The position numbers were made by a program, and so were the translations under genes. Under the pieces are notes generated by a model. That model was given only the letters and a program-made list of their open reading frames with translations. It ran no database searches and had not been told where the DNA came from. 64,000 nucleotides of DNA from a virus: IMG/VR virus record IMGVR_UViG_3300023181_000271; one strand, given 5' to 3'. Shown here in pieces: positions 3,818 to 63,874 of the stretch. The stretch's first letter is position 1, and the number at the start of each line of letters is the position of its first letter.

Positions 3818-3844
3818 TTTCGATCTATGGTGCTAAAACAAGAT

Positions 3845-4141: not shown

Positions 4142-4151
4142 AATACATTTA

Positions 4152-4379
4152 TTAATGATAATCAATAATTTCTACTTCGCTCGCATTTCCGTCCGACCAT
4201 TTGAAAATTATACGCCATTGGTCATTTATGCGGATACTATAGTAATCCTTTAAATCACCTTTTATCCTCTCCAATTTATTAGATGGTGGAATGGTTAAAT
4301 CAGGAAGCATTAGTATGTACATTGTCAATACGTCCATTCTATTTTTACAATTCCTTTTAGGACTTGCCGTTTTCTGCAC
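4152..4379 (-). CDS. higB: HigB-type toxin (RelE/ParE superfamily plasmid-maintenance killer), possibly N-terminally divergent or truncated
   Basis: C-terminal 45 aa (LERIKGDLKDYYSIRINDQWRIIFKWSDGNASEVEIIDYH) match HigB killer protein; toxin-upstream/antitoxin-downstream order typical of higBA; N-terminal third does not match family. Confidence 0.65.
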   Translation of the reverse strand: MQKTASPKRNCKNRMDVLTMYILMLPDLTIPPSNKLERIKGDLKDYYSIRINDQWRIIFKWSDGNASEVEIIDYH

Positions 4380-4418
4380 ATGACACTGATTCTAATGTAT
4401 ATGTAAGAATTACATATC

Positions 4419-4486
4419 AATAAAAAGGCCTCTGAGACACTCTCAAAGGCCTGGGTGGAGCTGAGGAGGAGTTAAATGAACCCTTT
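4419..4486 (-). repeat. Degenerate second copy of ssrA 3' end plus flanking terminator (relic att site of an older integrated element)
   Basis: Minus-sense GGGTTCATTTAACTCCTCCTCAGCTCCACCCAGGCCTTTGAGAGTGTCTCAGAGGCCTTTTT aligns with attL-side AAAGGTTCGAACCCCTTCGGCTCCACACAGGCCTCTGAGATTATCTCGGAGGCTTTTTTTT. Confidence 0.5.
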
Positions 4487-4708
4487 TTACGACTTTTAAT
4501 GCTGGTAAGGGAGGTTAATGAAGAAAATATCATGGTAAAAGAGGCGGAAGAAGAAATTGAATATTGATTGGTTTTAAGAGGCAAGGGGGCTAACGCCGAA
4601 CTTTTTTTATAATCTGCACATAGCCATTCATTTCTTTAATCATAGATAGACTTTGTAATGAACATATATTTTAGGTATTTTTGATGTATACCTTATCAAA
4701 TTGCATTT

Positions 4709-4948
4709 ATGCACACAGTAGATCTTATTTCCAGAAGGATAAATACGCTCATTAGACTTGGTGAGAGGAAAGATGGAGTTTTTTTAACTGATCTTAAGAA
4801 GGAGTACCGCCCAGATCTTCAAAATTTTATTGTAGGCGAAACTTTAGGCTTGCGAGACGGAAAAGTAGTTATAGGCAAAAACACTTATAAAAGATGGTTA
4901 CAAAAGATCAAAACTAATGGTTTTGATTATGATGTAAAGTTTATTTAA
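4709..4948 (+). CDS. Hypothetical protein immediately upstream of fic (stop-start adjacent)
   Basis: 79-aa ORF ending TAA directly followed by ATG of Fic gene; no recognisable motif. Confidence 0.3.
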   Translation: MHTVDLISRRINTLIRLGERKDGVFLTDLKKEYRPDLQNFIVGETLGLRDGKVVIGKNTYKRWLQKIKTNGFDYDVKFI

Positions 4949-5749
4949 ATGGCAATTGAAGATCAATTTAAAAAAATAAACGCCCTTCAAAAACAAATCC
5001 TTAAGCTGGAACCAAATCTAATGAAATGGGACCCGGATTACCTGGAAAAAGTAAAAGTTGATTTTACTTATGCATCAAATAACCTTGAAGGTAATAAGAT
5101 ATCACACGGACAGACCATACAAATATTAAAGGATTTCGTTAGCCCAAAGGATACTTCAATTTCTGATTATCTCGATATCCTCAATCATAAAAAGGTTCTT
5201 GATTTGGTTTTTGAAAACTATAAATCAGAACGTATTACTGAAAGTAACATCAAGAAACTCCACAAAGAGTTGATGAAAAATCCTGCGCAATGGGCAGATG
5301 ATACATATTGCGATCCAGGCAAATATAAGATTTTTGAAAACCGTACATACAGATCTAATGGTAAAGAACATCTATATGCAGAGCCAGAGAAAGTCCAACC
5401 GGCTATGGAATTACTAATTAGGGAGACAAATGAAGCTTTAGACGTTAATTCTACCAATATTGAATTTCACCCATTATCTATAGCTACTCGTTTTCACTTC
5501 ATATTTCTTAATCATATACACCCATTTGGTGACGGAAATGGCAGAATAGCACGTATTTTTATGAATCTTATTTTATTACAGAAAGGGCTTCCCCCTATTT
5601 TCATAAAAGAAGTTGACAAAAAAGATTATCTGGATTGTTTTACAAAGGAAGAAGAACACCCCGGAGTAATGCTTGAATTTATGACAGCACGATTGATTGA
5701 AAGTCTAAAATCAAAGAAAAAGCATCTTCTTGCAAGTTTGAATAAATAA
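4949..5749 (+). CDS. Fic/Doc family protein (AMPylation-type Fic domain)
   Basis: Canonical Fic motif HPFGDGNGRIARIFMN (HxFx(D/E)GNGRxxR) in a 266-aa protein. Confidence 0.9.
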   Translation: MAIEDQFKKINALQKQILKLEPNLMKWDPDYLEKVKVDFTYASNNLEGNKISHGQTIQILKDFVSPKDTSISDYLDILNHKKVLDLVFENYKSERITESNIKKLHKELMKNPAQWADDTYCDPGKYKIFENRTYRSNGKEHLYAEPEKVQPAMELLIRETNEALDVNSTNIEFHPLSIATRFHFIFLNHIHPFGDGNGRIARIFMNLILLQKGLPPIFIKEVDKKDYLDCFTKEEEHPGVMLEFMTARLIESLKSKKKHLLASLNK

Positions 5750-6254: not shown

Positions 6255-6259
6255 CTGTG

Positions 6260-6288
6260 TGGAGCCGAAGGGGTTCGAACCTTTGTCT
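6260..6288. repeat. attL: displaced copy of ssrA 3'-terminal core (tggagccgaaggggttcgaacc + tttgtct)
   Basis: 22-bp exact and 29-bp near-exact direct repeat with 63875-63903; corresponds to T-arm and acceptor 3' strand of tmRNA. Confidence 0.8.
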
Positions 6289-7262: not shown

Positions 7263-7559
7263 CTATTGTTCTTTAACTATGTCTTTAGATTTATTAAGCT
7301 TTTTAGTGGTGATACTGTCTTTTTTCTCAGCTTCGACGGCCTGATTTAAAATAATACCGTTCTTGATCAGTAGCGAGGTATTGAGTATATCGTTCTTACT
7401 CCGCTCTGCCTCATACCTCTTTTCGCATTCCTCACAATCACTTTTCTTCAGTACTGTGTATAGCAGGAGAACTACCACCGCGAACAGTGAGACCACTGTT
7501 ACACCCCATGGATACTTCTGCATTTTTTCGGGTGTGGGTATTTTTATTTTCTCAATCAT
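7263..7559 (-). CDS. Putative holin or i-spanin-like protein (single TM + coiled coil)
   Basis: 98 aa, one TM helix (VTVVSLFAVVVLLLYTVL) followed by charged coiled-coil segment; immediately downstream of endolysin with overlapping stop/start. Confidence 0.35.
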   Translation of the reverse strand: MIEKIKIPTPEKMQKYPWGVTVVSLFAVVVLLLYTVLKKSDCEECEKRYEAERSKNDILNTSLLIKNGIILNQAVEAEKKDSITTKKLNKSKDIVKEQ

Positions 7560-8116
7560 TACGCTGCATATTTAAGTTCTGCTTTTGCGAGACTGATATT
7601 GTACGGTTCGCGGCCGTATTTAATTGCAAGTTCTTTGTACCCGCCACCATTGTAATAAGTAGCGACAAGGTGCCAGTTACGTTCCTTAATTGCTTTCCAA
7701 AGTTTAGGATCTGTTTGTATGAATTTTACGATCCCTTTCACCTGTTGGTATTCGGATGCTTTAAAAGCATCAACCATTGCGTCTACAGTTTTAAATCCTA
7801 ATCGCGCATGATGAAAACCCATTATTTGTCCTAAGCCCCAGCTGGTAGAAAGCATTGCAGCAGTTGCATTTAACTTGAAGGCATTAGAGAATGCTTTATA
7901 TTCCTTATCCTGGTTATCTACCTTATTGATTGACCACAAACCTGAAGGTGCGAATGGTGCTTTTTTCTTAAACCAAGCTGGTTCAAATTGAATGACGATC
8001 CTTCCATTAATAAATCCCTTGCCTCCTGACTCAACGCTGATAAAAGCCATTAATGTGGCATAATTTATATCTATTGATTCGGCTAAGCCTTCGATTTCTT
8101 CGCGTGTTAAATTCAT
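7559..8116 (-). CDS. Endolysin, N-acetylmuramidase (DUF3380/PF11860-like) family
   Basis: ISVESGGKGF catalytic-Glu region and overall similarity to phage N-acetylmuramidase endolysins; likely start at internal ATG (MNLTREEIEGL) rather than the GTG at 8143. Confidence 0.65.
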   Translation of the reverse strand: MNLTREEIEGLAESIDINYATLMAFISVESGGKGFINGRIVIQFEPAWFKKKAPFAPSGLWSINKVDNQDKEYKAFSNAFKLNATAAMLSTSWGLGQIMGFHHARLGFKTVDAMVDAFKASEYQQVKGIVKFIQTDPKLWKAIKERNWHLVATYYNGGGYKELAIKYGREPYNISLAKAELKYAA

Positions 8117-8143
8117 AATACAACTGATTATTAGATGTATCAC

Positions 8144-8239
8144 AAATTTACCCCCACGATAAAGGCGGACTGGTTTTAAGGTTTTACCATTGGCTATTGG
8201 TAACTATAAAGTAGGTAACAAGTTACTATTGCTGAGCAC
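8144..8239 (-). promoter_or_regulatory. Copy A of ~95-bp conserved upstream element (ends in GTGGGGGTAAATTT just before start codon)
   Basis: Near-identical blocks shared with 14424-14526; contains TTACCA-N8-TGGTAA palindrome. Confidence 0.5.
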
Positions 8240-8489: not shown

Positions 8490-11162
8490 CTACCAATGAT
8501 CATTAGGCCCCTGCCCAATATACCTTCCATTGATGTATTTTCGGGTTTGTGGACCAGACGAACTAATCAATTCGTAACCAGTAAGTCCCGGATTTTCCCT
8601 GAAATAAATCTCTCCTTTTACCATTATTACGTCGCCAGATGTAACATTTAGTGCTACATTCTGATTAGCACCTTCCGCTGCTAATTCCAAGGCAATATTA
8701 ACAGTATCGTCAAGGCCGGGTACAGTACCTTTTTTGGGTCTTTTATTCTTCAGGTACCCAATTTGGCTGATTGCTCCACCACTGCTGCCCGGAATCAGGT
8801 CTGTCCCAAATGAAAATTCGTTATACTTATCGCCGGTATATCTTGATGACCCCCTAATGATGGCGAAGTTATTACCTTCTGGAAGCGCAGGAATGGTGGT
8901 ACCATCACTTAAAATTGCTCCCCTGGATAGTTTCCATCCAGATGTCTGTCCATCGGCTGTATTCCCAGATTCTGTACCGATTGTAATGTCCCCGGATATA
9001 TTGGCTTTACTCATATAAACGCTGCCATCATCCAGTACTCTGAATGGTAAATCAGCATCTCCTAATTGTCCACCAGCTCCAAAGCGAATTGATTGATCAC
9101 CGGCATCAGTAACGCCACTTATGAAGGCATTCCCTAACCCTGCTGAACCTACATTCAGTAAGCCTTCAGTATAAGAACCATCAAGCATCTGTACTTTGCC
9201 TTTGAACGTACCCTCATCAAGGTTTATCTCTAATTCATTACCAACAATAATTCCCCCCTCAATTGTTCGTCCATAAATGCTTACTGATCCATACACAGAT
9301 TTTAAGTTCCTGTAATTATCAATCACACTATTTGCTATCCCTATCCAGAAATGGTAAAATGTAGGATCCTGATCAACTTTAATTTGAGCATCCGAAACCA
9401 AGATGCTGCCATCTGCAGTTGTACGGTTACACTTCGCATAGATATAATAAACTTTAGCAGGATCCAGTCCAGAAACAGTTGCTCCTGGAACATTCCAGGT
9501 TACAGGAGCCGGAGCAATAGTAGTATGAACTAATTTTCCAGCAGACCAGTTTATCTTATTTACATCCGCTTGATAGTTACTTATAAAGTTCAATCCGACT
9601 AGTACCAGTTGCTGACTTGTATCCCCTGTCTGAATCATCAATGCACGTAAGGTTACTGGTGAAATAGCTTCGGTAAATATCTGCTCAGTTCCCGGATCAA
9701 AGTATTTATTTAACAGCTCCTGAGAAGTTTTCCAAAGCATACGGGAACGCTGGATATTTGTAATTTGGGCAATATTTAAAGCCTTGGTTACCTTCTCGGC
9801 TTCATATGTTACCCTTGCATAACTTGATCCCAATGCCAAATCTGAAATTCGCAGTACTGGATATAGGAATGGCTCGTGTAAATCGCGCTCAAAAGAGTTT
9901 ACCCTGATATTCTTATCAATAACGATATCAGAGTCCTTGACACCTACATAGTTCCCTAGATCAAGCGTGATGTTATTCCGCTTAAAGTAAAACTTATCAG
10001 GCGGCACCTCATAAGCCACCCTTGGTGGTGAGAATTCAGCAAAGTATTCGTTTCCCTTGGTAAGTAAGAACTGCTCCCTCTCAGAAACATAAGAGGGAGG
10101 CATTACCAAGTCATAGAAAAAGTAAGTATCACCGATTTCAGGCTTCATTAAAGCACTTGGCAATTCCAATGCCTTTTCTACTTCATTTTTAATGATTGTA
10201 ATAGTTCGAGTAGCGTGATTGTATCCTCCTTTAGGAATTTCAAACCAATAACCAGCCAGGTTCCCTGTTAAGAAAGAAACCTTAGGTCTTAAAGTTGGCA
10301 ATTCCTGTGTATTGATATCAAAGTCAATTCCCATATCAGAAAAAACAAAGGGAGTGGTCACGCTGGAGACCATACCAATACGTTCAGGCTTAATGTCGGG
10401 AAAGTTGATTACAGCTTCTATTTCATCCGGGCCATACTTTGGCCCTTGAATATAAGGAGTACCTTCTGGAAGCATCAAATTTGGCTGTCTGTTCCTATAA
10501 TTTACTGGTAGGTTCTGATCAGATCCTGTAACATAAAGTCTGCTGAATGCTGCCTTTGAGTCAACATTTGTACGGATTAATCCTCCTCTTAATCCTTTAT
10601 CATATCCGTACTCGAATTTATGACCGGTGACTACACCACGCTTATTAAAATGGATAGTTTTACCAACTACCCACCATTCCGTTTCAAAATCTTTAGCAGT
10701 ATTATCAATAACGGTTAAAATAGATTCTCCATCAAAAGAAATTAGCTTAGGAACCGAATCAATACATTCTCCCCTACTCCATCCGGACTGTGTACGGTTA
10801 GCGTTGGCCACAATCAAATCCAGCATCATACTTGCATTAGCCATGACCTCTGTTTTGATCACTGTAAGCGCATTGATGCTATCATAGAACATCATGATGG
10901 GTTTAGCCAATCTATAGTATTCAGCTTGAAACGTCATTCTGTAGCTGAATGACATACTACTGTTTTTAGTTGGCTCATCCATTTGGTTCAGATAGTAAGT
11001 CTGGCCATAAACAAACATCGTATCACCAATCTGGAATTGATAAGCAGCAGGAGAATTAAAGGTGATAGGAACAATGTCCTTAACCATTATTTCTTTCTCC
11101 TGCTGACCCTTCGGCCAAACTGTAGCAATTATAGCATCGCCTCTTTTAATGTTGTATAACAT
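8490..11162 (-). CDS. Large tail/baseplate structural protein (890 aa)
   Basis: Position at distal end of tail module after fibre gene; size and beta-rich composition typical of siphovirus tail tip/host-specificity proteins. Confidence 0.55.
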   Translation of the reverse strand: MLYNIKRGDAIIATVWPKGQQEKEIMVKDIVPITFNSPAAYQFQIGDTMFVYGQTYYLNQMDEPTKNSSMSFSYRMTFQAEYYRLAKPIMMFYDSINALTVIKTEVMANASMMLDLIVANANRTQSGWSRGECIDSVPKLISFDGESILTVIDNTAKDFETEWWVVGKTIHFNKRGVVTGHKFEYGYDKGLRGGLIRTNVDSKAAFSRLYVTGSDQNLPVNYRNRQPNLMLPEGTPYIQGPKYGPDEIEAVINFPDIKPERIGMVSSVTTPFVFSDMGIDFDINTQELPTLRPKVSFLTGNLAGYWFEIPKGGYNHATRTITIIKNEVEKALELPSALMKPEIGDTYFFYDLVMPPSYVSEREQFLLTKGNEYFAEFSPPRVAYEVPPDKFYFKRNNITLDLGNYVGVKDSDIVIDKNIRVNSFERDLHEPFLYPVLRISDLALGSSYARVTYEAEKVTKALNIAQITNIQRSRMLWKTSQELLNKYFDPGTEQIFTEAISPVTLRALMIQTGDTSQQLVLVGLNFISNYQADVNKINWSAGKLVHTTIAPAPVTWNVPGATVSGLDPAKVYYIYAKCNRTTADGSILVSDAQIKVDQDPTFYHFWIGIANSVIDNYRNLKSVYGSVSIYGRTIEGGIIVGNELEINLDEGTFKGKVQMLDGSYTEGLLNVGSAGLGNAFISGVTDAGDQSIRFGAGGQLGDADLPFRVLDDGSVYMSKANISGDITIGTESGNTADGQTSGWKLSRGAILSDGTTIPALPEGNNFAIIRGSSRYTGDKYNEFSFGTDLIPGSSGGAISQIGYLKNKRPKKGTVPGLDDTVNIALELAAEGANQNVALNVTSGDVIMVKGEIYFRENPGLTGYELISSSGPQTRKYINGRYIGQGPNDHW

Positions 11163-11180: not shown

Positions 11181-13856
11181 TTAAAGTCCAAACCTGTGCA
11201 TTATATTTAAGTCGTATTTAAACCGCCTAACCATTTCCGAATTACCTGCTTGATTCGGGTGTGTTCCATCATTGAATAATATGGCGTTTAATCGGGGGGC
11301 GGGGTGCGTGCTATCTATTGTAGGGAAATTTTGCAAAGCCGTACACAAATCAAACTTTGCGCCTTGCTTACCAAACGTATCTATCCTCGAATTTACAGCG
11401 ATATGTAAATCATTAGTTACGCAAGTAACATGATTAAGTATCAATTCAATACCATTGGTTGCACAGAAATCTACGATTGATTGGTACTGTGCAACAGTAC
11501 CAATACCATTTATACCTATTTTAACAGAAAGTATTCTAGGTTTAATGTATGCTATCTCATTAGTAAGCGCGGTAATACAGCCTGCTACAGTCTGCCCGGC
11601 CATAGACACATTGCACGCATCATTGTTATAGTAGTCCATTAACTGAACAGCCCAATTTTTATAACATCTACCATTATCTTCAGTAATACTATCACCTGTA
11701 AAAGCGATATACGGTCTGAAAGGCCCATAAATTGAACATTGACCTACCGAAATAGATGTGCCTGACACCAACTCCATGCAATAGAAGGGCCTATGATTTC
11801 CTGCGCCTAAATCATAGTTTAAACCATTTAGATAATCAAACCGAACTTCTACCATAGCTAAAGACCTCGGATCTATTAGCCTGACAATGGTTAATGTAGC
11901 TCTTCGTTCTAACTCAACCCAATATTCTAACCCGGGAGTTATTGCGAAAGTTATAGCGGTAGTGCCAATAATCGTAGTGGTAGCACGCCTGTTGAGATTG
12001 ATTATAAGATTAGGGATATCTATTACACAGCTTGTGTCATATACAAAATTGGCATTAACAGTACCTACCTTAAGTATGCTATCTGCTTGTGGAAATATTG
12101 ATTGCCTGAACAATCTCCGATCAGAGGTATACTGTCTATTTAATATAAGTTTCGAGCCAGCTGTGGTACTTGTCGCAAGCCCGTTAGATAGTACCCAAGC
12201 ATTAAGAGTCCACTCAGTTGTTGGTTGTGAAAAGTTATATTCATAAAACTTAGTCGACCTGCCTAAATTTTTTGCAATTGATGTTAAAGTATCACTGGAC
12301 TTTTTTGCAATATCTTTTACGCCTACCCAATCTTTACTAACCATATTAACAAAGGCTCCTTTTAGCGTGCTAGTACTTGAAAATACATCACCTGCAGTAT
12401 TATAGTAGCAGTTAAACTGAGTTTGCAAACTGGAATCACTAGTATAGGCAATAGCCACACCTTTAAAAGCAAGATATTGCCCTTGATTTACAACTATAGG
12501 CCGCTCCAGAGTCTGAGTAACAATGTTTCCTGAATATGACCTAATTGATGGACTTACGTCAACAAGAGAAACAACAGTAACCACACCAGCTACTATCTCA
12601 CAAATTTTAACTTGTGTAATTTCATCAATAATTGGACTGGTGGATTGAAAAATAAATTGATAAATACTTTTTGGTTTGTCGATCGGGACGCCATTCATAA
12701 TAAATGAAGCATATCCTGAATAGACTGCATATGTACCACTCAGCCAATCAAATGGTATGATTGGCGTCAGGCTTTCCTTATAACCGGCATATAAGTCCTT
12801 TTGCATCAAAGTTAGATCGTCAATCTTACTGCTACTTACGTATGTAGCTGTAAAAAATAGCTTAAAAGTTTGAGTAGTAGTTATGGATGGACTATCACCT
12901 ATAGCTAGAATAGAATTACCTAATGCAAATGCCGTATATCCAGTTACAGGCTGCTCGTACAACGATATTGTTGGAGAAAAGCCGATATATACATCAGAAG
13001 TATACACTTTATTGATCGTATAAGTATTATCACCTACAACAGTAGAGATCGGTATCTTGTCCAATAATGTAAATGAGTTGCCTACTTTGGAAAATAATTG
13101 TATGAATCCATTGGATGCGGTGCCCGCTTTTAAATATATGTACTTAGTTCTTTTATTGGCTGGTATAAATATATTTGCATCCACCCAATTTTGACCAGTA
13201 ACAGCTGTAGTTGCTGTGCCGCTAGTTGTAATGGTCTGAACCACATCAAGGCCATCCAGTACTGGTTTAAATAATTCTGAAGGAACATACTTAGACAGGT
13301 CGCTAACATTAGCCTTACTGAGTAAATCATCAACCCATACAGCAGATGTTCCTGGCACATCTGTAGATAATGCTGCTCCGCTTGAAATCCAGTATTTGCC
13401 TAAATAAGCTACGGCCATACCTAGACTATACGCTTGAGCAACCCATGATGGTATACGCGAAACTCCGGCTGTACCTGCTGCGCCTCGAATATCAACAGCG
13501 TTGGCAATAACTGTAGAAAAACCAGTTGCAGTAACATAGCTATTGATATTCTCAGTGGGCTTTGTTCCGGCTCCACCTGTATAATCAACTAATTTCTGAA
13601 CAATCCTGGTTCCATCTACAACATTAGCAAATACAGGCTGCCATCCTTTATCTCCCGGAAGTCCCCGTTCAGAATAAACCTGCCAGTAGGCAGTATTCGT
13701 GGGGAGCGTACCGGCAGGTACAGATCCAGATGTCGAAACAAGATATGACGCACCTAAATAACTAACAAAATCAAGATATTCATAATTTGCAGTAGCTGCA
13801 TTCCATGTTCCCCGTGGAGTATTACCTACCTTCCCTAAATTTACTGTTGTTGCCAT
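11181..13856 (-). CDS. Tail fibre/receptor-binding protein with C-terminal SGNH (GDSL) esterase domain
   Basis: 891 aa; C-terminal blocks FTGDSITEDNG (block I GDS), GINGIG (block III) and DGTHPN (block V DxxH) of SGNH hydrolases; Gly/Thr/Ser-rich fibre-like N-terminal region. Confidence 0.65.
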   Translation of the reverse strand: MATTVNLGKVGNTPRGTWNAATANYEYLDFVSYLGASYLVSTSGSVPAGTLPTNTAYWQVYSERGLPGDKGWQPVFANVVDGTRIVQKLVDYTGGAGTKPTENINSYVTATGFSTVIANAVDIRGAAGTAGVSRIPSWVAQAYSLGMAVAYLGKYWISSGAALSTDVPGTSAVWVDDLLSKANVSDLSKYVPSELFKPVLDGLDVVQTITTSGTATTAVTGQNWVDANIFIPANKRTKYIYLKAGTASNGFIQLFSKVGNSFTLLDKIPISTVVGDNTYTINKVYTSDVYIGFSPTISLYEQPVTGYTAFALGNSILAIGDSPSITTTQTFKLFFTATYVSSSKIDDLTLMQKDLYAGYKESLTPIIPFDWLSGTYAVYSGYASFIMNGVPIDKPKSIYQFIFQSTSPIIDEITQVKICEIVAGVVTVVSLVDVSPSIRSYSGNIVTQTLERPIVVNQGQYLAFKGVAIAYTSDSSLQTQFNCYYNTAGDVFSSTSTLKGAFVNMVSKDWVGVKDIAKKSSDTLTSIAKNLGRSTKFYEYNFSQPTTEWTLNAWVLSNGLATSTTAGSKLILNRQYTSDRRLFRQSIFPQADSILKVGTVNANFVYDTSCVIDIPNLIINLNRRATTTIIGTTAITFAITPGLEYWVELERRATLTIVRLIDPRSLAMVEVRFDYLNGLNYDLGAGNHRPFYCMELVSGTSISVGQCSIYGPFRPYIAFTGDSITEDNGRCYKNWAVQLMDYYNNDACNVSMAGQTVAGCITALTNEIAYIKPRILSVKIGINGIGTVAQYQSIVDFCATNGIELILNHVTCVTNDLHIAVNSRIDTFGKQGAKFDLCTALQNFPTIDSTHPAPRLNAILFNDGTHPNQAGNSEMVRRFKYDLNIMHRFGL

Positions 13857-13857
13857 G

Positions 13858-14418
13858 TTATTGTTTCGTTAAAATGAGTTGTTTTCTGCTATTCAAAGCA
13901 AAAGTGTATGTTGATTTGTCGTCCTTGGTTACCAGCAAGTCCATATTTGCGTCTACATTAAAGAAGAATTCACCATCAGTTTTATAGGGGACTGGCTGTA
14001 ATATTTCATCAAATGTGAATTGAACCTCTACTGCTATTTTACTTGTAAGATTGGTAATACGGTGCCAGCTGATCCCATCAGGCTGTAATCTGGCATTCAT
14101 CTTCACTCCAAGATGTACAGCCTCTAAAGTCACATAAGGCTGATATAGGAATCCTGGTAAAGCGATTTTTGTCGAATTATAAATGCTGATATTATCGCAG
14201 TATACGATCCCTTTAATAGTTGGTGTTCGCGGCTTTTGAATTACTGGTGCTAATAAATCATATTCCAGTATACCCTCAGCCCATTGATATTTATCTGGCT
14301 CTAACGTTCCAGCTGGTTTCTCAAAACTGTCGGCCGTTGTTAAATCCCGAGTAGGCAGAATGTTGAGTGCCTGAAAAAGGTTGTAACCATTAATATTGTA
14401 TTGCGCTGTGATCGCCAT
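13858..14418 (-). CDS. Hypothetical tail-module protein
   Basis: 186-aa ORF between beta-helix gene and fibre gene, preceded by conserved 95-bp element. Confidence 0.4.
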   Translation of the reverse strand: MAITAQYNINGYNLFQALNILPTRDLTTADSFEKPAGTLEPDKYQWAEGILEYDLLAPVIQKPRTPTIKGIVYCDNISIYNSTKIALPGFLYQPYVTLEAVHLGVKMNARLQPDGISWHRITNLTSKIAVEVQFTFDEILQPVPYKTDGEFFFNVDANMDLLVTKDDKSTYTFALNSRKQLILTKQ

Positions 14419-14423
14419 AAAAC

Positions 14424-14526
14424 AAATTTACCCCCACTATGAACAGAGGCCGGATTTATGGTTTTACCAATAGCCAATGGTAACGAACAAGCACGCGTAA
14501 CAAGACAAGGCTTTCTTATTGAGCAC
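14424..14526 (-). promoter_or_regulatory. Copy B of ~95-bp conserved upstream element
   Basis: Shares aaatttacccccac...ggttttacca-N8-tggtaac...gtaacaag...tattgNtgagcac blocks with 8144-8239; central 20-bp palindrome inverted relative to copy A. Confidence 0.5.
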
Positions 14527-15853
14527 CTACACCTACGAATTTTGATTTGAAGGTTGTAAGATCGGTAACCGCCTCCTGCCAAGTGTTTAAGTATAGATTA
14601 CCAGAATCCTTTACAATATTACCCCCATTTGAATTGGTCATATTTCCGATCGCATTAGCGGGCCTGTACATATCAAATCCAAAGTTGTTGTAATATGAAA
14701 TTTTACCGCCCGTATTATAAGTATCCAGCATCACCCCTTCCCAGTCTTTAGATATAGTAAGGTGCCCAGCTGTATTATTATATACATAAGCATCGGTATA
14801 ATTAATAACTCCTTTATGTGAGGTTAAGAAATCTACTATATGCTGTGGTGCCTGTAATTCAAATGCGCTATACTTCCAGCTGTTATAAACGATATTATTA
14901 TAAATCTTAATGTCCTTCACCGTGCTGCCAAAAGATACGCCCCAAGCCCTAATTGCATTTCCCTGATGGTTAGTGATCTTATTATCATGAAATGAGCCAT
15001 TGCCGGTAATCATGAAAATACCATTATGAATGCCATTAGGTGCCGACTTATCGTAGACATTATTGATATTGTTCACTACGTTACCTGCAATCTCATATCC
15101 ATCCAAAGCGGATGCGTACATGACTGTGCCAATAGTCGGGCAGTCTACAAATTTGTTATTCAAGATTTTTATCCCTGACATATAGGTGGTAATTCCACCA
15201 TCGCTGTAACCTCCTCCTAGCCCGATACCTTGTCCTACATTGGTGAAGGAGCAATTTTCTATACGCCAATCTTTTGAATTGGTTTTATCTGTACCATCCC
15301 AGATCCCTGCATATTCATAGGTGATCACATTGCTTTTAATATTCTTAAAAGTCAAATCATGCAGGTAAATTCCTGTACAGAAACCCCTAATATTGACAGC
15401 ACGATACGATTGATCAGCCATTGTTAATCCATACAACTCAAAGTTATTTGCATTATTAATATCGAATGAACTGTAGTCTGAATTAATTGTAACCCCTGTA
15501 GCATCAATCACAACATTGGTGGCACTGGTAAAACCTATGCTCCAATAATTGCCCGGTTTAATTTTGAACTTCTTATTTGCAAGTACACCTAAATCAAGCC
15601 TTCCGGAGCCGGTACCTACCAGGATCCAAGTAGGATGAGACAATAGGTAATCTTTGTAGGCTTTGGTCACGACAGACTTCGCCACACTTCCAGTGATCGT
15701 TAGTACGGTTCCATCGGAATACTTTACCGTATTGGTAACGACTGATGCGCTCGTATAAGAAATAGTTTTCCCATCAATAGGGAAAGATCCTGTTTGTGCT
15801 GATGCAAACATAGTGTAGCTGATCAGCAATAGCGTTAATAGTTTTCTCATCAT
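14516..15853 (-). CDS. Sec-signal right-handed beta-helix (pectate-lyase-like) protein; candidate depolymerase or secreted moron
   Basis: N-terminal signal peptide MMRKLLTLLLISYTMFASAQ; multiple PbH1-like repeats (NCSFTN, ILNNKFVDC, IAGNVVNN, FHDNKITN, IYNNIVYNS). Confidence 0.6.
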   Translation of the reverse strand: MMRKLLTLLLISYTMFASAQTGSFPIDGKTISYTSASVVTNTVKYSDGTVLTITGSVAKSVVTKAYKDYLLSHPTWILVGTGSGRLDLGVLANKKFKIKPGNYWSIGFTSATNVVIDATGVTINSDYSSFDINNANNFELYGLTMADQSYRAVNIRGFCTGIYLHDLTFKNIKSNVITYEYAGIWDGTDKTNSKDWRIENCSFTNVGQGIGLGGGYSDGGITTYMSGIKILNNKFVDCPTIGTVMYASALDGYEIAGNVVNNINNVYDKSAPNGIHNGIFMITGNGSFHDNKITNHQGNAIRAWGVSFGSTVKDIKIYNNIVYNSWKYSAFELQAPQHIVDFLTSHKGVINYTDAYVYNNTAGHLTISKDWEGVMLDTYNTGGKISYYNNFGFDMYRPANAIGNMTNSNGGNIVKDSGNLYLNTWQEAVTDLTTFKSKFVGVGAQ

Positions 15854-15866: not shown

Positions 15867-18800
15867 TTATCTTCCTACTCCCTGTTGCGCTTTCAATTGA
15901 TCATCCATCTTTCTGTTCATGGATACCAGTGAATTTTCAATGCTTTCTAATCGATTTGTGTTATCGGCTGTCCTGAGCGTATTAGCTGCAATCTTCTGAC
16001 TTTCCAAAAGGTTTAATGAACTCATATTCAATATTTGAATCGCAGTCAAACCCATCGGTTTAAGGATGTTATTTGTTTCCAATTGCGTTAACCTGAAACC
16101 TGCAAAATGCCCCGCTAATACATCTGCTTGTGTGGCTGTAATTGCTTGAATTCCGCTTTTAATTGTTCCTGATGAATCATCAGAACCTAATAAATTTGAC
16201 CCAGTAATCTTTTTAAACTCTTCAAATTTCTTTAAAGCATCGCCAGTAAGGGAGGTGAACAATCCATTTAAGGTGGCAATCTCATCAGCAGTTAATTCAT
16301 CGCCACTCTGCGCGGCCTTATCAAATTCACTATAAAACTTCTCCATAGCACCAGCAAGCACTTTATTCTTAAATATGCTTAGCGCCGCGTCATCCATTGT
16401 CTGTTTAAAGAAATCTGCCAGATCCTGAGCAGACGTTTTACCAGAAGCAAACATCTCAGCGAGTGTATTCGTTAGATTGTCGGAAGTAGTACCCGTGAAT
16501 AGTTCCGATGTTTCTTTAGCCAAATCAGCAATAGCCTGTTCAGCATCGTATCCTTTCTGCTCTAATTCCTTCAACCGCTCAACTAAGGCCTTAGCATCAC
16601 CTTCCAGTTTACCTTGTGCAAGTAGATTGCTTAACTCCTGAAAGCTTTTACCCTGGAGACTTCCATAGGTCTTGTCTACTTTTGCTTTACGGAACCAGGT
16701 ACCATGCGTATAAGTCTCATTAGCGATGAACGACTGGCTTTGCAACTTCGCCATGATCTCTGCAGCTTCCTTCGTATATGCTTCGTTCTGCGACTTTCGT
16801 AATGCCAACTCATCCCTGATACCTTGCAGTGCAACCTTATTATTCCTGACCGTTTGAAGTTGCCTTTCCTTCAACATATCCTGATATTCACGTTCGCCAG
16901 CAATTGCATTGATATAGAAATCTTCAACCTCTTTACGAGCAGCAGCGTTCATCTCTTTTACTTTTTTTCCAATAGACAAGAGCCCTGTTACAGCAGTTAC
17001 TGCTTTAGTTACTCCACCAACGATATCTCCACTTGCAAAAGAAGAAAAAGAACCTGCAGCATCTGATCCAACCTTAACTAGTTTGCCAATCGTATCTAAT
17101 AAGTATCCCGCCTGTGTATCGTTACCACCTAATGATGTCGATAACTCATCGAAACTACTTGATAAGGCACCAAGGTCTTTAGATACTCCAGCAGCAAACT
17201 CAGAAGATGTTCCTTTTAAATAACTAAAGTTTTCAGCAATCTTATCACCCCAAGAAGCAGCACCATCACCATTTTTATCGATCTCCTTAATCTTAATACC
17301 GATAGCCGCTAACCTGGTAATGATTGCTTTGTAATCATCTTCGCTTAAAATGATTTCATTACCATCTTCGTCCTTTACATGAAGCTGATCACTTACCCTC
17401 TTAAATTCATCCTTTAAGTTTTGAAGATTACCTTTATCAATTCCAATTTTAAAAGATAATTTAAGTGCATCTAGGCTTTTCTGAACTTTGATAACTTGTT
17501 CTGCTGGTAAGGTGCCGGATCCTAGAACACCCTCTAATGCCCTGATCTGTTGAACCAATTGTTCTCTTGTCAGAATTAAAGCTTCTTCTGCCGCCCTTTT
17601 ATACACAGCAGACTTCTGCAGCATAGCTGACGACAATTGGTCAATTTCATCCTGGTATGCCTTAGTACGTACAGCACGATTACTAGCATTAGCATCACCA
17701 GTCATTTTTTCAAAATCAGCATTAAACTTCTCAGTCGCTGTAGTTTTAGCCTGTTGATAAGTAGCATTGGTAAGCAAAAGAGCGTTATAATTATCCCTTT
17801 CTTTTTTCTGCTCTTCTTTGATACGATTTGCAACAATAATTAAACGCTCCTGCTCCGGACCAGATAGAAGCTTTCCATTTATAGAATTAGATACCCCCTT
17901 ATAGATTAGCTTTGAGTACTCATCTTTCAGTGTATCCAGATAGTTTTTAGTACTTCCTAATTCAGTAGCAAACCTTTTCTTAGCAGCAGTTTCACCAATT
18001 TCTTTTTTTGCCTGTTCGAAGTCAGTATATAATACTTTTTGTTTATCCAGTTCAATAGTTAACTTGGCAGTATTCTGTCTATAAGTTACTGCCGCAAGTT
18101 CTTTCTTCTCACCTTCAGCCAAGCCGCCTGCATCTACACTTAATCCCTTTGCTTTATTTTTAACATCCTTATTAAATGCAGCCGCTTCAGCTCGCATCTT
18201 AATATACTTATCCTTTACGGACTCAATTTCCTGTTGATCAGCGGACAATTGTCTATCTGTACCGGCCTTTATAAGTTCAGCAATCTTTGTTTGTAAATCA
18301 TTTCTCGCTTTTAAGGCTGAAGCATATTGATTCTTTTCTGTAATGCCAGAGTTGTCAATACCACCATTGGCAAGTTTTAACTCTTTTCGTAAGTCTTTTA
18401 ATTTCTTAAGATTCGACTGATATTGTGCAGTGGTGTATCCCAGTTTCTTATTTGCATCTACAAGCGCTTTGATATCTGCCTTAATATCATCAGTAGTTCT
18501 ACCTTCTCCTCCAGCGCCATCGAAAGTCTCCTGAACAGCACCATAGAGACCAGTATAAGATTTTCTAAGTTTATCAACAATGGATTGTTGCTGCAATAAA
18601 GGAGCCTGCAGATTTTTGAACCTGTCAACAAAAGGTTTAATTGCAGCTTCAGAATTCTTAGGATTTTTAGCGTATTCTTTAGCATAATTGGATTGCTCAT
18701 ACAACCGATTCAACTTGCTTTGCTGAATATCAATCGCCTTTTTTAAAGAAGGTTCATCAATATTAGTATCAACAATCAACTTTGATTTGATCGTAGCAAT

Positions 18801-21002
18801 ACCTTCGATCTTATCCCGGTTAGCAAGAATTGTAGATTGTCTTTCTTCAGCTTTGATAGCTGCAATAGCATCTGCATTTCTTTTTGCAGCAGCAGTTGGT
18901 CCAGATAATATATCACCAAAACCACCACCAAAACCTTTAGCTAGCGTGCCAAATCTACTAATTATCGTATCCAGGTTCTTGATCAGTATTGTTGCAGCGT
19001 CGATGCCTCCTTTGAAAAACTGGCCAATGCTACTGTCAGGATTAGTAGTTACATTGGTAATGGAATTACCTAATTTATCCCATGATGCAGCAAGGTTGTT
19101 GTTTTTCTCTTCAAAGTTTTCTGATAAAATAGTATGCTCCTCATAAAGGTCATTACCTGTTTTAACTTTCTTACTTAAGCTTTCTTGATTTAACGCCAAA
19201 GCTGTTATTGCATTGGTTGCAGCACCAACTTTAAAACCTAATGTACCCAGTCTATCGTTAAACTCAGTCGTAGTTGGATTGCCAGCTTTCAATCCTTTGA
19301 AGAATAAGTCCAGTGCCTGTTTAGAGTCTGTATTTACAAGTTTGGTGAACTTTTCTAACGTTAAAGTTGAATCAGCAAGCTGAGCAATCGCAAAGTACTT
19401 TTCTCTCTTTCCGGATAAGGAAGATATCAACCTACTAGTTGATGATGCTGCAATCTGAGCACTTACCCCTGCCTCTGACAAGACTGCACCATAAGCCAGC
19501 ATAGTCGGCAATGATAACTTTGCTACCCGAGCTGCACCAGCAGTTCTTAAAGTGAAATCTTGAAGGAACTGAACGTTAATTGGTCCAGTGTGGGATATAC
19601 CAAGAATAGCAGATCCTACCTTTTTAAGTGACTCTTCTAAACTAATATTCTCCTTTGAAGTCAGCTTATAGATTGAAATGATTTTTCCTAATGATCGGGC
19701 GACCGTCTCAGCACCACCTGGGAACTCCCTTTTTAAGACAACTGCTAATTGGTCAATAGTCTCGATATAACCTACAAGATCTTTCTTTGCAACCGCAAGC
19801 TGCCCCCCAACAAAACCAGTGTCTAACAGACCAGATAAATTGGTTCTTGTATCAACATCCTTAAGTGTAGTAACTAATACTCCTACCTCTTCCGTTGACT
19901 CCCTTGCGGTCCTTTTTATATCGGAAATACTATCAGACAATTCTAAGTTAGCATGGAATACACTTTTTATTGCTGCCACTGCTGCGTACAAAGTCAAGTA
20001 TGAGGCCACCATGCCAACAATCTGAGAACCTAAACCTGATAAAAATCCACCGGTCTTTTGGATAGCGTTTCCAAACTCATCAAAACCTTTTTTTCCAGCA
20101 CTATTTAACCTTTGTAATTCCTCCTGAGTCTGACCAATCTTTCTGTTTAGCGCAACGATGTTCTCAGCACCCTTAGCAGTATTTGGCTGTGCACGTACAG
20201 CATCAGAATAAATCTTTAGCCTATTAGTAAGCGTCTCCTGATAGCCGATCGTCTTTTTGATCGCATTCCCTACCTCATCAAAACCGGCTTTTCCGGCATT
20301 TTTTGTTTTGACAATTGCTGCAGCTGTTTCCTCTAGTTTACGATTGTACTTAGCGATAAGTTCAGGATTGGTCATTGATGCTGCACCATTCTTATAAATT
20401 TTTTGCAGCTCAATCAATCTATTTAAAGTTCCAACAGGACGTTCAATGGAAACTTTCATTGCATTACCCAACTCGTCAAAACCATCTTTACCAATATTTT
20501 TGGTTCTGGTAATCTGAATAGCAACATCAGCAAGCTTTTGATTGTATTTAGCAATTGCATCAGTATTAGCCATCCCAACTAATCCAGCTTTGTAGATGTT
20601 TTGTAATTCTATTAGCCTGGCAAGTGTACCAACTGGTCTTTCGTAAGACGTTTTAATCGCATTACCAAGGTCATCAAAACCTATTTTACCAATATTGGTA
20701 AGCCTCTTTATTTCAGCTTCAAACTCTTGAATCTTTTGATTGTATTTTTCAATACCAGCAACAGACATAGCGGAATCTGCAGAGGCTTTAAACTCAGCCA
20801 ATTTTGCTTTAAGCCTTTCAAGAATTCCATTATTAGCATCTGCAATTTTCTTAGCAAATCCTTCCACCTTTTCACCCTGAGCTGTGGCATTGCTTGCCAG
20901 CCCATTCACCTTGGTGTTCATGGTATTTATCGTCGCATTGAAGCTCTTATCGTTTATCGTTGCATCAAAATGTAATCCACCGCCTGTTGTTGAAGTGCTC
21001 AT
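15867..21002 (-). CDS. Tail tape measure protein
   Basis: 1711 aa, coiled-coil rich, internal ~44-aa tandem repeats, TM-like segment, located between chaperone and distal tail genes. Confidence 0.9.
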   Translation of the reverse strand: MSTSTTGGGLHFDATINDKSFNATINTMNTKVNGLASNATAQGEKVEGFAKKIADANNGILERLKAKLAEFKASADSAMSVAGIEKYNQKIQEFEAEIKRLTNIGKIGFDDLGNAIKTSYERPVGTLARLIELQNIYKAGLVGMANTDAIAKYNQKLADVAIQITRTKNIGKDGFDELGNAMKVSIERPVGTLNRLIELQKIYKNGAASMTNPELIAKYNRKLEETAAAIVKTKNAGKAGFDEVGNAIKKTIGYQETLTNRLKIYSDAVRAQPNTAKGAENIVALNRKIGQTQEELQRLNSAGKKGFDEFGNAIQKTGGFLSGLGSQIVGMVASYLTLYAAVAAIKSVFHANLELSDSISDIKRTARESTEEVGVLVTTLKDVDTRTNLSGLLDTGFVGGQLAVAKKDLVGYIETIDQLAVVLKREFPGGAETVARSLGKIISIYKLTSKENISLEESLKKVGSAILGISHTGPINVQFLQDFTLRTAGAARVAKLSLPTMLAYGAVLSEAGVSAQIAASSTSRLISSLSGKREKYFAIAQLADSTLTLEKFTKLVNTDSKQALDLFFKGLKAGNPTTTEFNDRLGTLGFKVGAATNAITALALNQESLSKKVKTGNDLYEEHTILSENFEEKNNNLAASWDKLGNSITNVTTNPDSSIGQFFKGGIDAATILIKNLDTIISRFGTLAKGFGGGFGDILSGPTAAAKRNADAIAAIKAEERQSTILANRDKIEGIATIKSKLIVDTNIDEPSLKKAIDIQQSKLNRLYEQSNYAKEYAKNPKNSEAAIKPFVDRFKNLQAPLLQQQSIVDKLRKSYTGLYGAVQETFDGAGGEGRTTDDIKADIKALVDANKKLGYTTAQYQSNLKKLKDLRKELKLANGGIDNSGITEKNQYASALKARNDLQTKIAELIKAGTDRQLSADQQEIESVKDKYIKMRAEAAAFNKDVKNKAKGLSVDAGGLAEGEKKELAAVTYRQNTAKLTIELDKQKVLYTDFEQAKKEIGETAAKKRFATELGSTKNYLDTLKDEYSKLIYKGVSNSINGKLLSGPEQERLIIVANRIKEEQKKERDNYNALLLTNATYQQAKTTATEKFNADFEKMTGDANASNRAVRTKAYQDEIDQLSSAMLQKSAVYKRAAEEALILTREQLVQQIRALEGVLGSGTLPAEQVIKVQKSLDALKLSFKIGIDKGNLQNLKDEFKRVSDQLHVKDEDGNEIILSEDDYKAIITRLAAIGIKIKEIDKNGDGAASWGDKIAENFSYLKGTSSEFAAGVSKDLGALSSSFDELSTSLGGNDTQAGYLLDTIGKLVKVGSDAAGSFSSFASGDIVGGVTKAVTAVTGLLSIGKKVKEMNAAARKEVEDFYINAIAGEREYQDMLKERQLQTVRNNKVALQGIRDELALRKSQNEAYTKEAAEIMAKLQSQSFIANETYTHGTWFRKAKVDKTYGSLQGKSFQELSNLLAQGKLEGDAKALVERLKELEQKGYDAEQAIADLAKETSELFTGTTSDNLTNTLAEMFASGKTSAQDLADFFKQTMDDAALSIFKNKVLAGAMEKFYSEFDKAAQSGDELTADEIATLNGLFTSLTGDALKKFEEFKKITGSNLLGSDDSSGTIKSGIQAITATQADVLAGHFAGFRLTQLETNNILKPMGLTAIQILNMSSLNLLESQKIAANTLRTADNTNRLESIENSLVSMNRKMDDQLKAQQGVGR

Positions 21003-32163: not shown

Positions 32164-32177
32164 ATAATATATATTTG

Positions 32178-63863: not shown

Positions 63864-63874
63864 CGTTTTAAGAG

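What the first reader, a model, noticed from the sequence alone, without database searches (positions are those of the whole stretch)
14516..15853. Sec-signal-bearing beta-helix (pectate-lyase-like) protein encoded inside the tail gene block
The 445-aa protein has a classical cleavable signal peptide and at least five parallel beta-helix repeat motifs. It sits directly after the tape measure gene, where the distal tail protein is normally found. It is either a secreted polysaccharide depolymerase expressed from the prophage (a moron or lysogenic-conversion factor) or an unusual tail spike that keeps a signal-like N-terminus.
Basis: partly seen in the sequence, partly recalled or inferred. Interest (0 to 1): 0.55.

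Follow-up and report, generated by a model that had tools for sequence, protein, structure and literature searches.

The report
Exported beta-helix glycanase inside phage tail operon
A prophage of a Pedobacter-like soil bacterium carries, between its tape-measure and distal-tail genes, an extra gene for a sugar-chain-cutting enzyme that keeps a working-looking export signal, so it is probably sent into the cell envelope rather than built into the virus particle.

Summary

The family has no Pfam, PHROG or PDB sequence match. The three lipoprotein members whose context was looked up lie inside polysaccharide-biosynthesis clusters; two others are standalone secreted genes.

Of the 45 closest homologs, 33 carry a signal and 32 of those cleave before Gln (the Bacteroidetes Q-rule). 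Signal-less forms are nested at least four times in the tree. The gene's position varies: after the tape measure, before Tal, among connector genes, or in a lysis cassette.

Best reading (about 0.5): a host-derived, Sec-exported polysaccharide depolymerase, co-expressed with late genes, that acts on the host's own capsule or EPS from the periplasm. Virion tailspike and lysogenic-conversion readings are not excluded. New variant of a known kind; moderate interest.

The parts
14516..15853 (-). BH445: 445-aa signal-bearing right-handed beta-helix protein, a putative polysaccharide lyase or hydrolase.
15797..15853 (-). Sec/SPI signal peptide, residues 1-19 (MMRKLLTLLLISYTMFASA). Predicted cleavage is before Gln20, following the Bacteroidetes Q-rule.
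   Evidence: Sequence. Conserved n-h-c plus [A/S/G]|Q in about 32 of 33 signal-bearing close homologs. Q-rule from PMC5837995. Cleavage itself is inferred, not shown.
15632..15796 (-). Small N-domain, residues ~20-74: beta-hairpins plus one helix. It is present in phage-context members, including the signal-less ones in chromosomal prophage remnants. It is absent from host lipoprotein and standalone forms. Function unknown.
   Evidence: AF2 strands E19-52 and helix H58-71, pLDDT 57-69. Alignment A2. A profile search of 1.84 billion representatives finds it clearly only on this beta-helix family (full-length members and fragments); the remaining hits are partial, multi-stretch matches in very long proteins that were not inspected.
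14519..15631 (-). Beta-helix body, residues ~75-445, about 12 rungs. Invariant polar residues, in 444-aa numbering (add 1 for the 445-aa form): H275, N276, N290, Q296, N319, Y327, E331, Q333, D376, Y378. Near-invariant: R301, W303, K326.
   Evidence: Catalytic roles are not assigned.
15867..21002 (-). Tape measure protein (1711 aa), immediately upstream. Its stop lies 13 nt before the BH445 start.
   Evidence: PF10145; phrog_25337, phrog_9959 and phrog_28. Junction sequence.
13858..14418 (-). p186: minimal distal tail protein (Dit), immediately downstream.
11181..13856 (-). p891: tail-fibre-like N-terminus with a C-terminal GDSL/SGNH carbohydrate-esterase-like domain.
   Evidence: Weak PF13472 and PF00657 hits, plus PHROG tail-fibre hits. 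The L009 ortholog hits PF13472 at 1.2e-15.
8490..11162 (-). p890: Tal-like distal tail / tip protein.
   Evidence: PF06605 below threshold; phrog_19846 at 2.7e-166. In L018 its homolog follows tape measure-Dit directly.
14422..14491 (-). 70-nt repeated element in the BH445-Dit spacer. A second copy lies at 8142-8211, upstream of the endolysin gene. It holds a palindrome and GTGGGGGTAAATTTG, which contains a TAnnTTTG -7 box. It may mark a transcription-unit boundary just after BH445.
   Evidence: repeat family D2. Function is inferred only.

Best explanation
BH445 is an accessory, host-derived polysaccharide-cleaving enzyme (right-handed beta-helix; lyase or hydrolase) inserted between the tape-measure and Dit genes. 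It is not a core tail part.

Proposed mechanism:
1. It is transcribed with the late head/tail operon.
2. Its N-terminal signal takes it through SecYEG.
3. Signal peptidase I cuts after Ala19 and exposes Gln20, which would then be cyclised as in other Bacteroidota exported proteins.
4. Having neither a lipobox Cys nor a type IX secretion (T9SS) C-terminal domain, it stays in the periplasm or envelope.
5. There it cleaves the host's own capsule, EPS or O-polysaccharide chains at or near the export machinery. This is what its cellular paralogs in polysaccharide-biosynthesis loci, and the structurally closest enzyme RbmB, are thought to do.
6. The payoff would be a stripped cell surface at lysis: progeny are not trapped on receptor-bearing debris or matrix, and late superinfection is reduced.

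Shown: fold, signal anatomy and conservation, accessory (indel) status, and the host-locus context of paralogs. Inferred: actual export, substrate, catalytic mechanism, timing and benefit.
For: 1. Signal. The n-h-c architecture, Ala at -3/-1 and Gln at +1 are present. The same pattern occurs in about 32 of 33 signal-bearing close homologs, against a 2.7% background Q frequency. The Q-rule marks genuine SPI substrates in Bacteroidota (PMC5837995). A host flanking gene (248-832) and prophage gene 61489-62052 show the same kind of site, Ala|Gln and Gly|Gln respectively.

2. No other route. There is no lipobox Cys and no T9SS CTD or any other NCBIfam/Pfam hit.

4. Cellular relatives. Lipoprotein paralogs P0091, P0080 and P0087 lie inside clusters of GT2/GT4/GT8 glycosyltransferases, and each cluster also has some of a Wzx-type flippase, an ABC exporter and O-acyltransferases. 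The SPI-type P0020 and P0028 are standalone host genes.

5. Accessory status. L101 and L102 have tape measure-Dit-fibre-Tal, with the tape-measure stop overlapping the Dit start and no BH homolog in the DNA fetched (about 9 kb on each side in L101; all of the 16-kb contig for L102). Tape-measure identity is 41-59% and Tal 46-65%. p186 is the Dit.

6. Variable position. The gene lies after the tape measure (window, L001, L009), before Tal (L012, L013, L026, L076), among head-tail connector genes (L007/L098), or inside a lysis cassette after an M15 endolysin (L018, L019).

7. Late co-expression. The gap after the tape-measure stop is 13 nt, no TAnnTTTG or sigma-70-like site lies upstream, and G+C equals that of the prophage.

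8. Uniqueness. BH445 is the only signal-bearing protein in the structural module.
Against: - No experimental or SignalP evidence of export; cleavage is inferred.
- Signal-less orthologs occupy the same slot in L009 and equivalent slots in L012, L013 and L076. The protein therefore also works without export. Those forms could be virion-bound or released at lysis.
- A phage-specific N-domain, usually followed by a Pro-rich linker, is kept in signal-bearing forms. It looks like an attachment or targeting module whose role the export model does not explain.
- The gene always travels with tail-fibre, esterase and Tal genes, as receptor-binding proteins do.
- No keyword precedent for a Sec-exported phage depolymerase was found.
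- Substrate and catalytic residues are unknown.
Confidence: 0.5

Rival explanations
1. Virion-associated tailspike or side-spike depolymerase. The N-domain docks the beta-helix onto the tail tip (Dit, Tal or fibre). The hydrophobic N-terminus is then either inefficient or ignored, or the protein is exported, matures in the periplasm and docks onto tails only after lysis mixes the compartments.
For: - It lies in the tail-tip gene cluster next to Dit, an esterase-bearing fibre and Tal.
- Signal-less orthologs sit at the same place in L009, L012, L013 and L076.
- The N-domain plus linker occurs only in phage-context members.
Against: - The signal is conserved with the Q-rule, which implies selection for real export. 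Tailed-phage tails assemble in the cytoplasm (established knowledge).
- The tail module is complete without the gene in L101 and L102.
- The gene's position is not fixed and includes a lysis cassette.
- The N-domain is clearly found only on this beta-helix family and matches no PHROG, Pfam or known adaptor; other hits to its profile were partial matches in very long proteins that were not inspected.
- Its size and its best structural matches are those of monomeric secreted enzymes.
- There is no homolog in 50,697 deposited phage genomes that would supply proteomic support.
Confidence: 0.22
2. Lysogenic-conversion or superinfection-exclusion factor. The gene is expressed from the repressed prophage. 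The exported enzyme trims or removes the receptor polysaccharide of the lysogen, or remodels its biofilm matrix.
For: - It is an exported enzyme in a temperate phage: integrase at 62625-63863 and att-like repeats.
- It is an accessory indel with variable position, like classical morons.
- In L018 and L019 it lies in the cargo-like end region.
- P. gingivalis prophages also carry Q-rule proteins proposed to modify the host surface (PMC10367356).
Against: - There is no own promoter-like motif and no terminator upstream; only 13 nt separate it from the tape-measure stop.
- G+C is the same as its neighbours.
- In L001 its stop overlaps the Dit start, which suggests operon-embedded late expression.
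Confidence: 0.18
3. Non-catalytic beta-helix binding protein: an adhesin or lectin in the manner of PfbA, with no depolymerase activity.
Against: - About 20 invariant polar residues are clustered in consecutive rungs (HNG, NHQGN-IR-W, KYSAFELQ, D-Y). They are conserved from phage to host lipoprotein members at 33-40% overall identity, which is typical of an active site.
- Host paralogs sit in polysaccharide biosynthesis loci.
Confidence: 0.05

Closest known systems
RbmB of Vibrio cholerae (periplasmic VPS alpha-1,4-polysaccharide lyase; PDB 9ozd/9ozl)
   Same: - Single-domain right-handed beta-helix of similar size.
- N-terminal signal peptide and periplasmic localisation.
- Encoded within the exopolysaccharide/matrix gene cluster, as the cellular paralogs of BH445 are.
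   Different: - Only 15% identity, and no sequence-level relationship: the profile search against PDB found nothing at E<=10.
- Equivalence of RbmB's catalytic Lys227 and Ca site could not be tested.
- RbmB is chromosomal, not phage-borne, and has no N-domain.
Periplasmic or envelope glycanases encoded in EPS operons (AlgL, PslG, PelA, BcsZ)
   Same: Same logic as the host lipoprotein paralogs: an exported enzyme encoded inside the biosynthesis cluster that acts on the cell's own polymer (the concept is cited in PMC12993940).
   Different: Different folds and families, except for the beta-helix epimerase/lyase relatives. None of them is carried in a phage tail operon.
Phage tailspike / capsule depolymerases (P22, HK620, CBA120 TSPs, Klebsiella and Acinetobacter depolymerases)
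   Different: - Tailspikes lack signal peptides.
- Tailspikes are trimeric, with recognised N-terminal adaptor domains and usually C-terminal domains.
- BH445 is short, has a Q-rule signal and matches no PHROG or Pfam tailspike family.
- BH445 is dispensable for the module.
PL6 polysaccharide lyases (chondroitinase B; alginate lyases of Pseudopedobacter)
   Different: No PF14592 or any other Pfam hit. Identity is 13-18%. The Ca2+/Lys/Arg catalytic set was not verified.
Sec-exported and SAR endolysins (Lys44 of phage fOg44; P1 Lyz)
   Same: Precedent for a late phage lytic enzyme that is pre-positioned outside the cytoplasm by the host Sec system before lysis (PMC6116005).
   Different: Those act on peptidoglycan and lie in the lysis cassette. 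BH445 has a polysaccharide-lyase-like fold and lies in the tail operon. The window has its own PF11860 endolysin at 7559-8143.
Signal-bearing morons in tail regions (lambda lom/bor, Cor, T5 Llp) and Q-rule proteins of P. gingivalis prophages
   Same: Exported accessory proteins inserted among late or tail genes. The Q-rule has been noted in Bacteroidota prophage proteins of unknown function (PMC10367356). The lambda, Cor and T5 examples are from my own knowledge.
   Different: Those are small outer-membrane proteins or lipoproteins, usually with their own promoter. BH445 is a 445-aa enzyme-like beta-helix with no detectable promoter.

Membership tests
Right-handed parallel beta-helix (pectin-lyase-like) fold superfamily | Stack of three-stranded rungs forming a right-handed beta-helix. 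| tested here: met
   [not shown]
Pectate lyase families proper (PL1, PL3, PL9) / Pfam pectate-lyase models | Significant match to the family sequence profile. | tested here: not met
   No Pfam hit for BH445 at E<=0.01. Among 40 members, only 6 hit PF12708 and 3 hit PF13229, at E of 1e-3 to 1e-4.
PL6 lyases / RbmB-like lyases | Sequence homology plus a catalytic Lys base and Ca2+/Arg neutraliser in the groove. | tested here: inconclusive
   [not shown]
Sec/SPI-cleaved exported protein of Bacteroidota (Q-rule) | Positively charged n-region, 10-15-residue hydrophobic h-region, small residues at -3/-1, Gln at +1. | tested here: met
   MMRK / LLTLLLISYTMF / ASA | Q. The same pattern holds in about 32 of 33 signal-bearing close homologs. 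Actual cleavage is not testable here.
Bacterial lipoprotein (SPII substrate) | Lipobox ending in Cys at +1. | tested here: not met
   There is no Cys in residues 1-40 of BH445. By contrast, 55 of the 120 listed homologs were scored as lipoproteins by a lipobox regex. That count includes a few close SPI-type members mis-scored because of a Cys in their h-region; most of the distant members are clear ...[AS]CKK lipoproteins.
T9SS cargo | C-terminal sorting domain of about 70-100 aa (TIGR04183 / Por_Secre_tail). | tested here: not met
   No NCBIfam or Pfam hit at E<=1. The beta-helix runs to within about 25 residues of the C-terminus.
Phage tailspike (virion-bound trimeric depolymerase) | Recognised N-terminal particle-binding or adaptor domain. 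| tested here: not met
   No PHROG or Pfam match. The N-domain profile clearly finds only this family; the remaining hits are partial matches in very long proteins that were not inspected.
Phage tailspike (virion-bound trimeric depolymerase) | Homotrimer; presence in purified virions. | not testable with these tools
   No multimer prediction and no proteomics are available. There is no homolog in deposited cultured phages.
Distal tail protein (Dit) | Dit N-terminal belt fold, encoded right after the tape-measure gene. | tested here: not met
   [not shown]
Phage moron (accessory gene) | Present or absent between otherwise syntenic phages; position not fixed. | tested here: met
   Absent in L101 and L102, where tape measure and Dit abut. 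Four different positions are seen across loci.
Phage moron (accessory gene) | Own promoter and terminator; deviant base composition. | tested here: not met
   No promoter-like motif upstream. G+C is 0.39, the same as its neighbours. A repeat element with a hairpin follows the gene.

The most novel reading that the evidence does not exclude
The phage strips its host's capsule or EPS from the inside. A host EPS-processing glycanase was captured with its export signal and is sent to the periplasm during late infection. Across the family one would then be seeing, caught in the act, the conversion of exported cellular glycanases into cytoplasmic phage depolymerases or tailspikes, through at least four independent signal losses.

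An even bolder version: the exported, pyroGlu-capped enzyme docks onto finished tails through its N-domain only after lysis.
Probability: 0.25. Interest if true: 0.75.

Novelty: new variant of a known kind. Interest (0 to 1): 0.5.

Why it matters
Phage depolymerases are usually treated as virion tailspikes, or as free enzymes released at lysis. A depolymerase-like enzyme that the phage routes through the host Sec system would add a third mode: surface stripping from within, before lysis. That bears on progeny release from capsulated or biofilm hosts and on superinfection exclusion.

The family is unannotated (no Pfam, PHROG or PDB relative). It links phage genes to exported enzymes encoded in the host's own polysaccharide loci. 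That gives a concrete route by which phages acquire enzymes already matched to the host's glycan.

The family also offers a natural series of signal-bearing and signal-less orthologs in the same genomic slot. This makes the question 'does the signal matter, and for what?' directly testable.

Tried and rejected
- Pfam, PHROGs and NCBIfam on BH445: no hits.
- Pfam on 40 family members: only marginal beta-helix hits.
- Profile search against PDB sequences: nothing even at E<=10.
- tblastn against 50,697 deposited phage genomes: no match, so no proteomic or annotated relative exists.
- N-domain profile against 1.84 billion representative proteins, run to test whether it is a shared virion adaptor: it is clearly found only on this family. 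The remaining hits are partial, multi-stretch matches in very long proteins; I took them for repeats without inspecting the sequences.
- Sigma-70 and terminator scan: counts at or below the shuffled expectation.
- Bacteroidetes -7 box TAnnTTTG: 27 observed against about 29 expected, and none upstream of BH445. One copy lies inside the signal-coding region and I judged it chance.
- Dual-start idea (Met15 giving a signal-less isoform): rejected, because the internal Met is not conserved in P0002-P0004 and others.
- False lipobox (LLISC in P0002 and similar): judged to be h-region Cys, since a canonical SA|Q site follows and the window protein has Tyr there.
- phmmer of p186, p890 and p891 against PDB: nothing significant. 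The fold search was needed to identify p186 as the Dit.
- The 13-mer GGGGGTAAATTTG was not found in any other locus.
- Literature keyword searches found no described Sec-exported phage depolymerase. This is absence in the held library only.
- Host genus was not determined directly. It is inferred from homolog taxonomy (Pedobacter, Parapedobacter, Mucilaginibacter, Niabella, Chitinophaga) and from Q-rule signals in flanking genes.

Full report
**1. What is there**

The finding's coordinates hold an ORF on the minus strand (14516-15853, 445 aa). Its N-terminus is MMRK-LLTLLLISYTMF-ASA|QTGS. That is a positively charged n-region, a 12-residue hydrophobic core, Ala at -3 and -1, and Gln at +1. This is the textbook signal-peptidase-I pattern and it obeys the Bacteroidetes Q-rule (PMC5837995).

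An AlphaFold2 model built on 40 homologs is confident (mean pLDDT 90.6, pTM 0.83). It shows three parts:
- the signal helix;
- a small, less confident N-domain (residues ~19-73, pLDDT 57-69);
- a right-handed parallel beta-helix of about 12 rungs running to the C-terminus.

**2. Genomic setting**

The window holds a prophage of about 57.6 kb, defined by these features:
- a 29-nt direct repeat at 6259-6287 and 63874-63902, with a tRNA T-arm-like sequence;
- an integrase at 62625-63863;
- an HTH regulator, RecT and terminase;
- host katG and a thioredoxin-like gene outside the repeat.

Late genes run on the minus strand in this order:
- tape measure (15867-21002; PF10145 and PHROG tape-measure families);
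- BH445;
- p186;
- p891, with a tail-fibre-like N-terminus and a GDSL/SGNH esterase-like C-terminus;
- p890, which is Tal-like (PF06605 weak; phrog_19846 at 2.7e-166);
- holin-like and endolysin genes (PF11860).

**3. It is an accessory insertion**

Two related phages, L101 and L102, carry homologs of the same tape measure (41-59% identity), Dit (45-51%) and Tal (46-65%). In both, the tape-measure stop overlaps the Dit start. Neither has a BH445 homolog in the DNA fetched: about 9 kb on each side in L101, and the whole 16-kb contig for L102.

Across other loci the beta-helix gene sits in four different places:
- after the tape measure (window, L001/L004, L009);
- just before the Tal-like gene, after a Dit-like gene and two other genes (L012, L013, L026, L076);
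- among head-completion and connector genes (L005, L007/L098, L008);
- in Pedobacter prophages L018 and L019, inside the lysis cassette, after a Peptidase_M15_4 endolysin and a TM protein and before a lipoprotein with a C-terminal TM segment.

Between the window and L001, the fibre is 96% identical and Tal 90%. BH445 is only 71% identical, Dit 69% and tape measure 43%. The region is therefore mosaic.

**4. The family and where it comes from**

BH445 has no Pfam, PHROG or NCBIfam match. A family profile finds no PDB sequence at E<=10. No deposited phage genome encodes a homolog.

The large protein collection holds 154 homologs. The genome scan finds about 80 loci, almost all in Sphingobacteriaceae (Pedobacter, Parapedobacter, Mucilaginibacter), with some in Niabella and Chitinophaga and a few in Cytophagales. 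Most chromosomal members are lipoproteins (...[AS]CKK...) with a Pro/Thr linker in place of the N-domain.

I looked up the context of three lipoprotein members. All lie inside polysaccharide-biosynthesis clusters of GT2, GT4 and GT8 glycosyltransferases. Each cluster also has some of:
- a Wzx-type flippase;
- an ABC exporter;
- MBOAT or Acyl_transf_3-SGNH O-acyltransferases.

This is the arrangement known for AlgL, PslG, PelA and RbmB: an exported enzyme that processes the cell's own polymer. RbmB, the best structural match, carries a signal peptide and was shown to be periplasmic (PMC12993940).

A second cellular subclade is about 50% identical to BH445 over the helix. It has an SPI signal and no N-domain. 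The two members whose context was looked up are standalone host genes.

**5. The signal peptide is real and ancestral**

Among the 45 closest homologs, 33 have a hydrophobic N-terminus. In 30 by script, plus 2 by eye, it ends in [A/S/G]|Q at positions 17-22. One is a lipoprotein. The background Q frequency is 2.7%. That conservation is hard to explain unless the peptides are used.

Twelve homologs lack a signal; one of those is probably a mis-called start. In a neighbour-joining tree of the helix core, signal-less forms are nested at least four separate times inside signal-bearing clades. Several still show a decayed ...AAQ-QTG... remnant.

Exported therefore appears to be the ancestral state, with repeated loss. 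The tree is a simple NJ tree without support values, so the count of losses is approximate.

Within the window's structural module, BH445 is the only protein with a signal. It has no lipobox Cys and no T9SS C-terminal domain. The predicted destination is the periplasm or envelope.

**6. Expression**

- No sigma-70-like site or terminator stands out; counts are at or below shuffled expectation.
- No Bacteroidetes TAnnTTTG box lies upstream of BH445.
- G+C (0.39) matches the prophage.

Directly downstream lies a 70-nt element (14422-14491) with a palindrome and the sequence GTGGGGGTAAATTTG. It recurs once, upstream of the endolysin gene at 8142-8211. This suggests that BH445 is the last gene of the head-tail-tape-measure transcription unit. 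I infer late, lytic co-expression. This is not shown.

**7. Interpretation**

The best-supported model (about 0.5) is a host-derived polysaccharide depolymerase that the phage makes late and exports through Sec. In the periplasm it would cut the host's own capsule, EPS or O-polysaccharide, as RbmB-like and AlgL-like enzymes do. That would clear receptor-bearing polymer before lysis.

What remains unexplained:
- the phage-specific N-domain (a profile search finds it clearly only on this family);
- functional-looking signal-less orthologs in the same slot (L009).

These two points keep a virion-spike role alive (about 0.2), possibly for the signal-less forms only.

A prophage-expressed conversion or exclusion role (about 0.18) would need a promoter that I could not find. 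A non-catalytic adhesin role is unlikely, given the block of invariant polar residues shared with host enzymes (H275, N276, Q296, R301, K326, Y327, E331, D376 in 444-aa numbering).

**8. Comparison with what is known, and novelty**

It works like an RbmB/AlgL-type periplasmic EPS-processing enzyme. It resembles phage tailspikes in fold and neighbourhood only. It fails the membership tests that could be run for pectate lyase and PL6 families (sequence), tailspike families (adaptor domain, absence of signal), Dit, lipoprotein and T9SS cargo.

Known precedents for the parts are:
- Sec-exported and SAR endolysins (PMC6116005);
- Q-rule proteins of unknown function in P. gingivalis prophages (PMC10367356);
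- signal-bearing morons in lambdoid tail regions (my own knowledge).

I found no description of a Sec-signal-bearing depolymerase-like enzyme embedded in a tail operon. I rate it a new variant of a known kind, in an unannotated protein family. Interest is moderate (0.5): the anatomy is clear and the hypothesis is testable, but export, substrate and benefit are all still inferred.

Noticed in passing
[not shown]
   Followed up: yes
window 8142-8211 and 14422-14491: A 70-nt repeat (76% identity) contains the palindrome TTACCAATAGCCAATGGTAA and an identical 15-mer, GTGGGGGTAAATTTG, which holds a Bacteroidetes -7 box. It lies just upstream of the endolysin gene and of the Dit gene. It is a candidate late promoter or regulatory element. 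The 13-mer core of that 15-mer is absent from all other fetched loci.
   Followed up: partly
window 27934, 32937, 40681, 46026, 53920 (29 nt each): Five copies of a palindromic element, ATGTTCTAA...TTAGAACAT, are spaced 5-8 kb apart through the prophage. The coordinates fall in gaps between ORFs. They could be operator, terminator or regulator-binding sites.
   Followed up: no
window 6259-6287 and 63874-63902: A 29-nt direct repeat (28/29 identical) with a tRNA T-arm-like GGTTCGAACC is the probable attL/attR. It implies a prophage of about 57.6 kb integrated at a tRNA-like 3' end. ARAGORN did not call a tRNA there.
   Followed up: partly
window 31831-31902 and 32177-32251 (-): The prophage carries tRNA-Trp(CCA) and tRNA-Gln(TTG) genes next to the terminase region.
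   Followed up: no
window 39911-40267 (-) and 61489-62052 (+): There are two other exported prophage proteins. One is a 118-aa lipoprotein (…LGVGC|KKE). The other is a 187-aa protein with a weak DUF4251 hit and a Gly|Gln SPI-type site, next to the repressor and integrase. Both are better-placed candidates for lysogenic conversion or superinfection exclusion than BH445.
   Followed up: no
window 11181-13856 (-); L009 11839-13797; L013 7208-9694; L026 8910-9953: In four of the phage loci examined, the genes next to the beta-helix gene include proteins with carbohydrate-esterase-like domains (GDSL/SGNH, SASA, deacetylase-like), three of them on fibre-like proteins; apart from L009 (PF13472, E 1.2e-15) the hits are weak. 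Host paralog loci contain O-acyltransferases. Together this suggests an O-acetylated polysaccharide target.
   Followed up: partly
L010 11194-13296; L006 2353-3741: The genes immediately downstream of the beta-helix gene in two related viral contigs also start with an SPI signal that cleaves before Gln (MKHLKLL…AFG|Q and …AYG|Q). Signal-bearing proteins in tail modules may therefore be a wider habit of these Sphingobacteriia phages.
   Followed up: partly
L018 8829-11962; L019 equivalent: In Pedobacter prophages, the signal-less beta-helix gene sits between an M15 endolysin plus TM protein and a lipoprotein with a C-terminal TM segment (unimolecular-spanin-like). That places it inside the lysis cassette. 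L002, L016 and L017 look like remnants of this arrangement.
   Followed up: partly
L005 9382-9984; L006 359-991; L007 9385-9987; L008 9389-9973; L026 7585-8910 (C-terminus): A conserved protein of about 200 aa and unknown function lies directly upstream of the signal-bearing beta-helix gene in four viral contigs. The same sequence is fused to a larger protein in L026. It may be a travelling partner gene.
   Followed up: no
window 3506-5749: Just outside the att repeat lie a Fic/DOC-family gene (4949-5749) and, by eye from its N-terminal sequence only (no family search run), a HigA-like HTH gene (3845-4141). G+C is low there (0.33).
   Followed up: no
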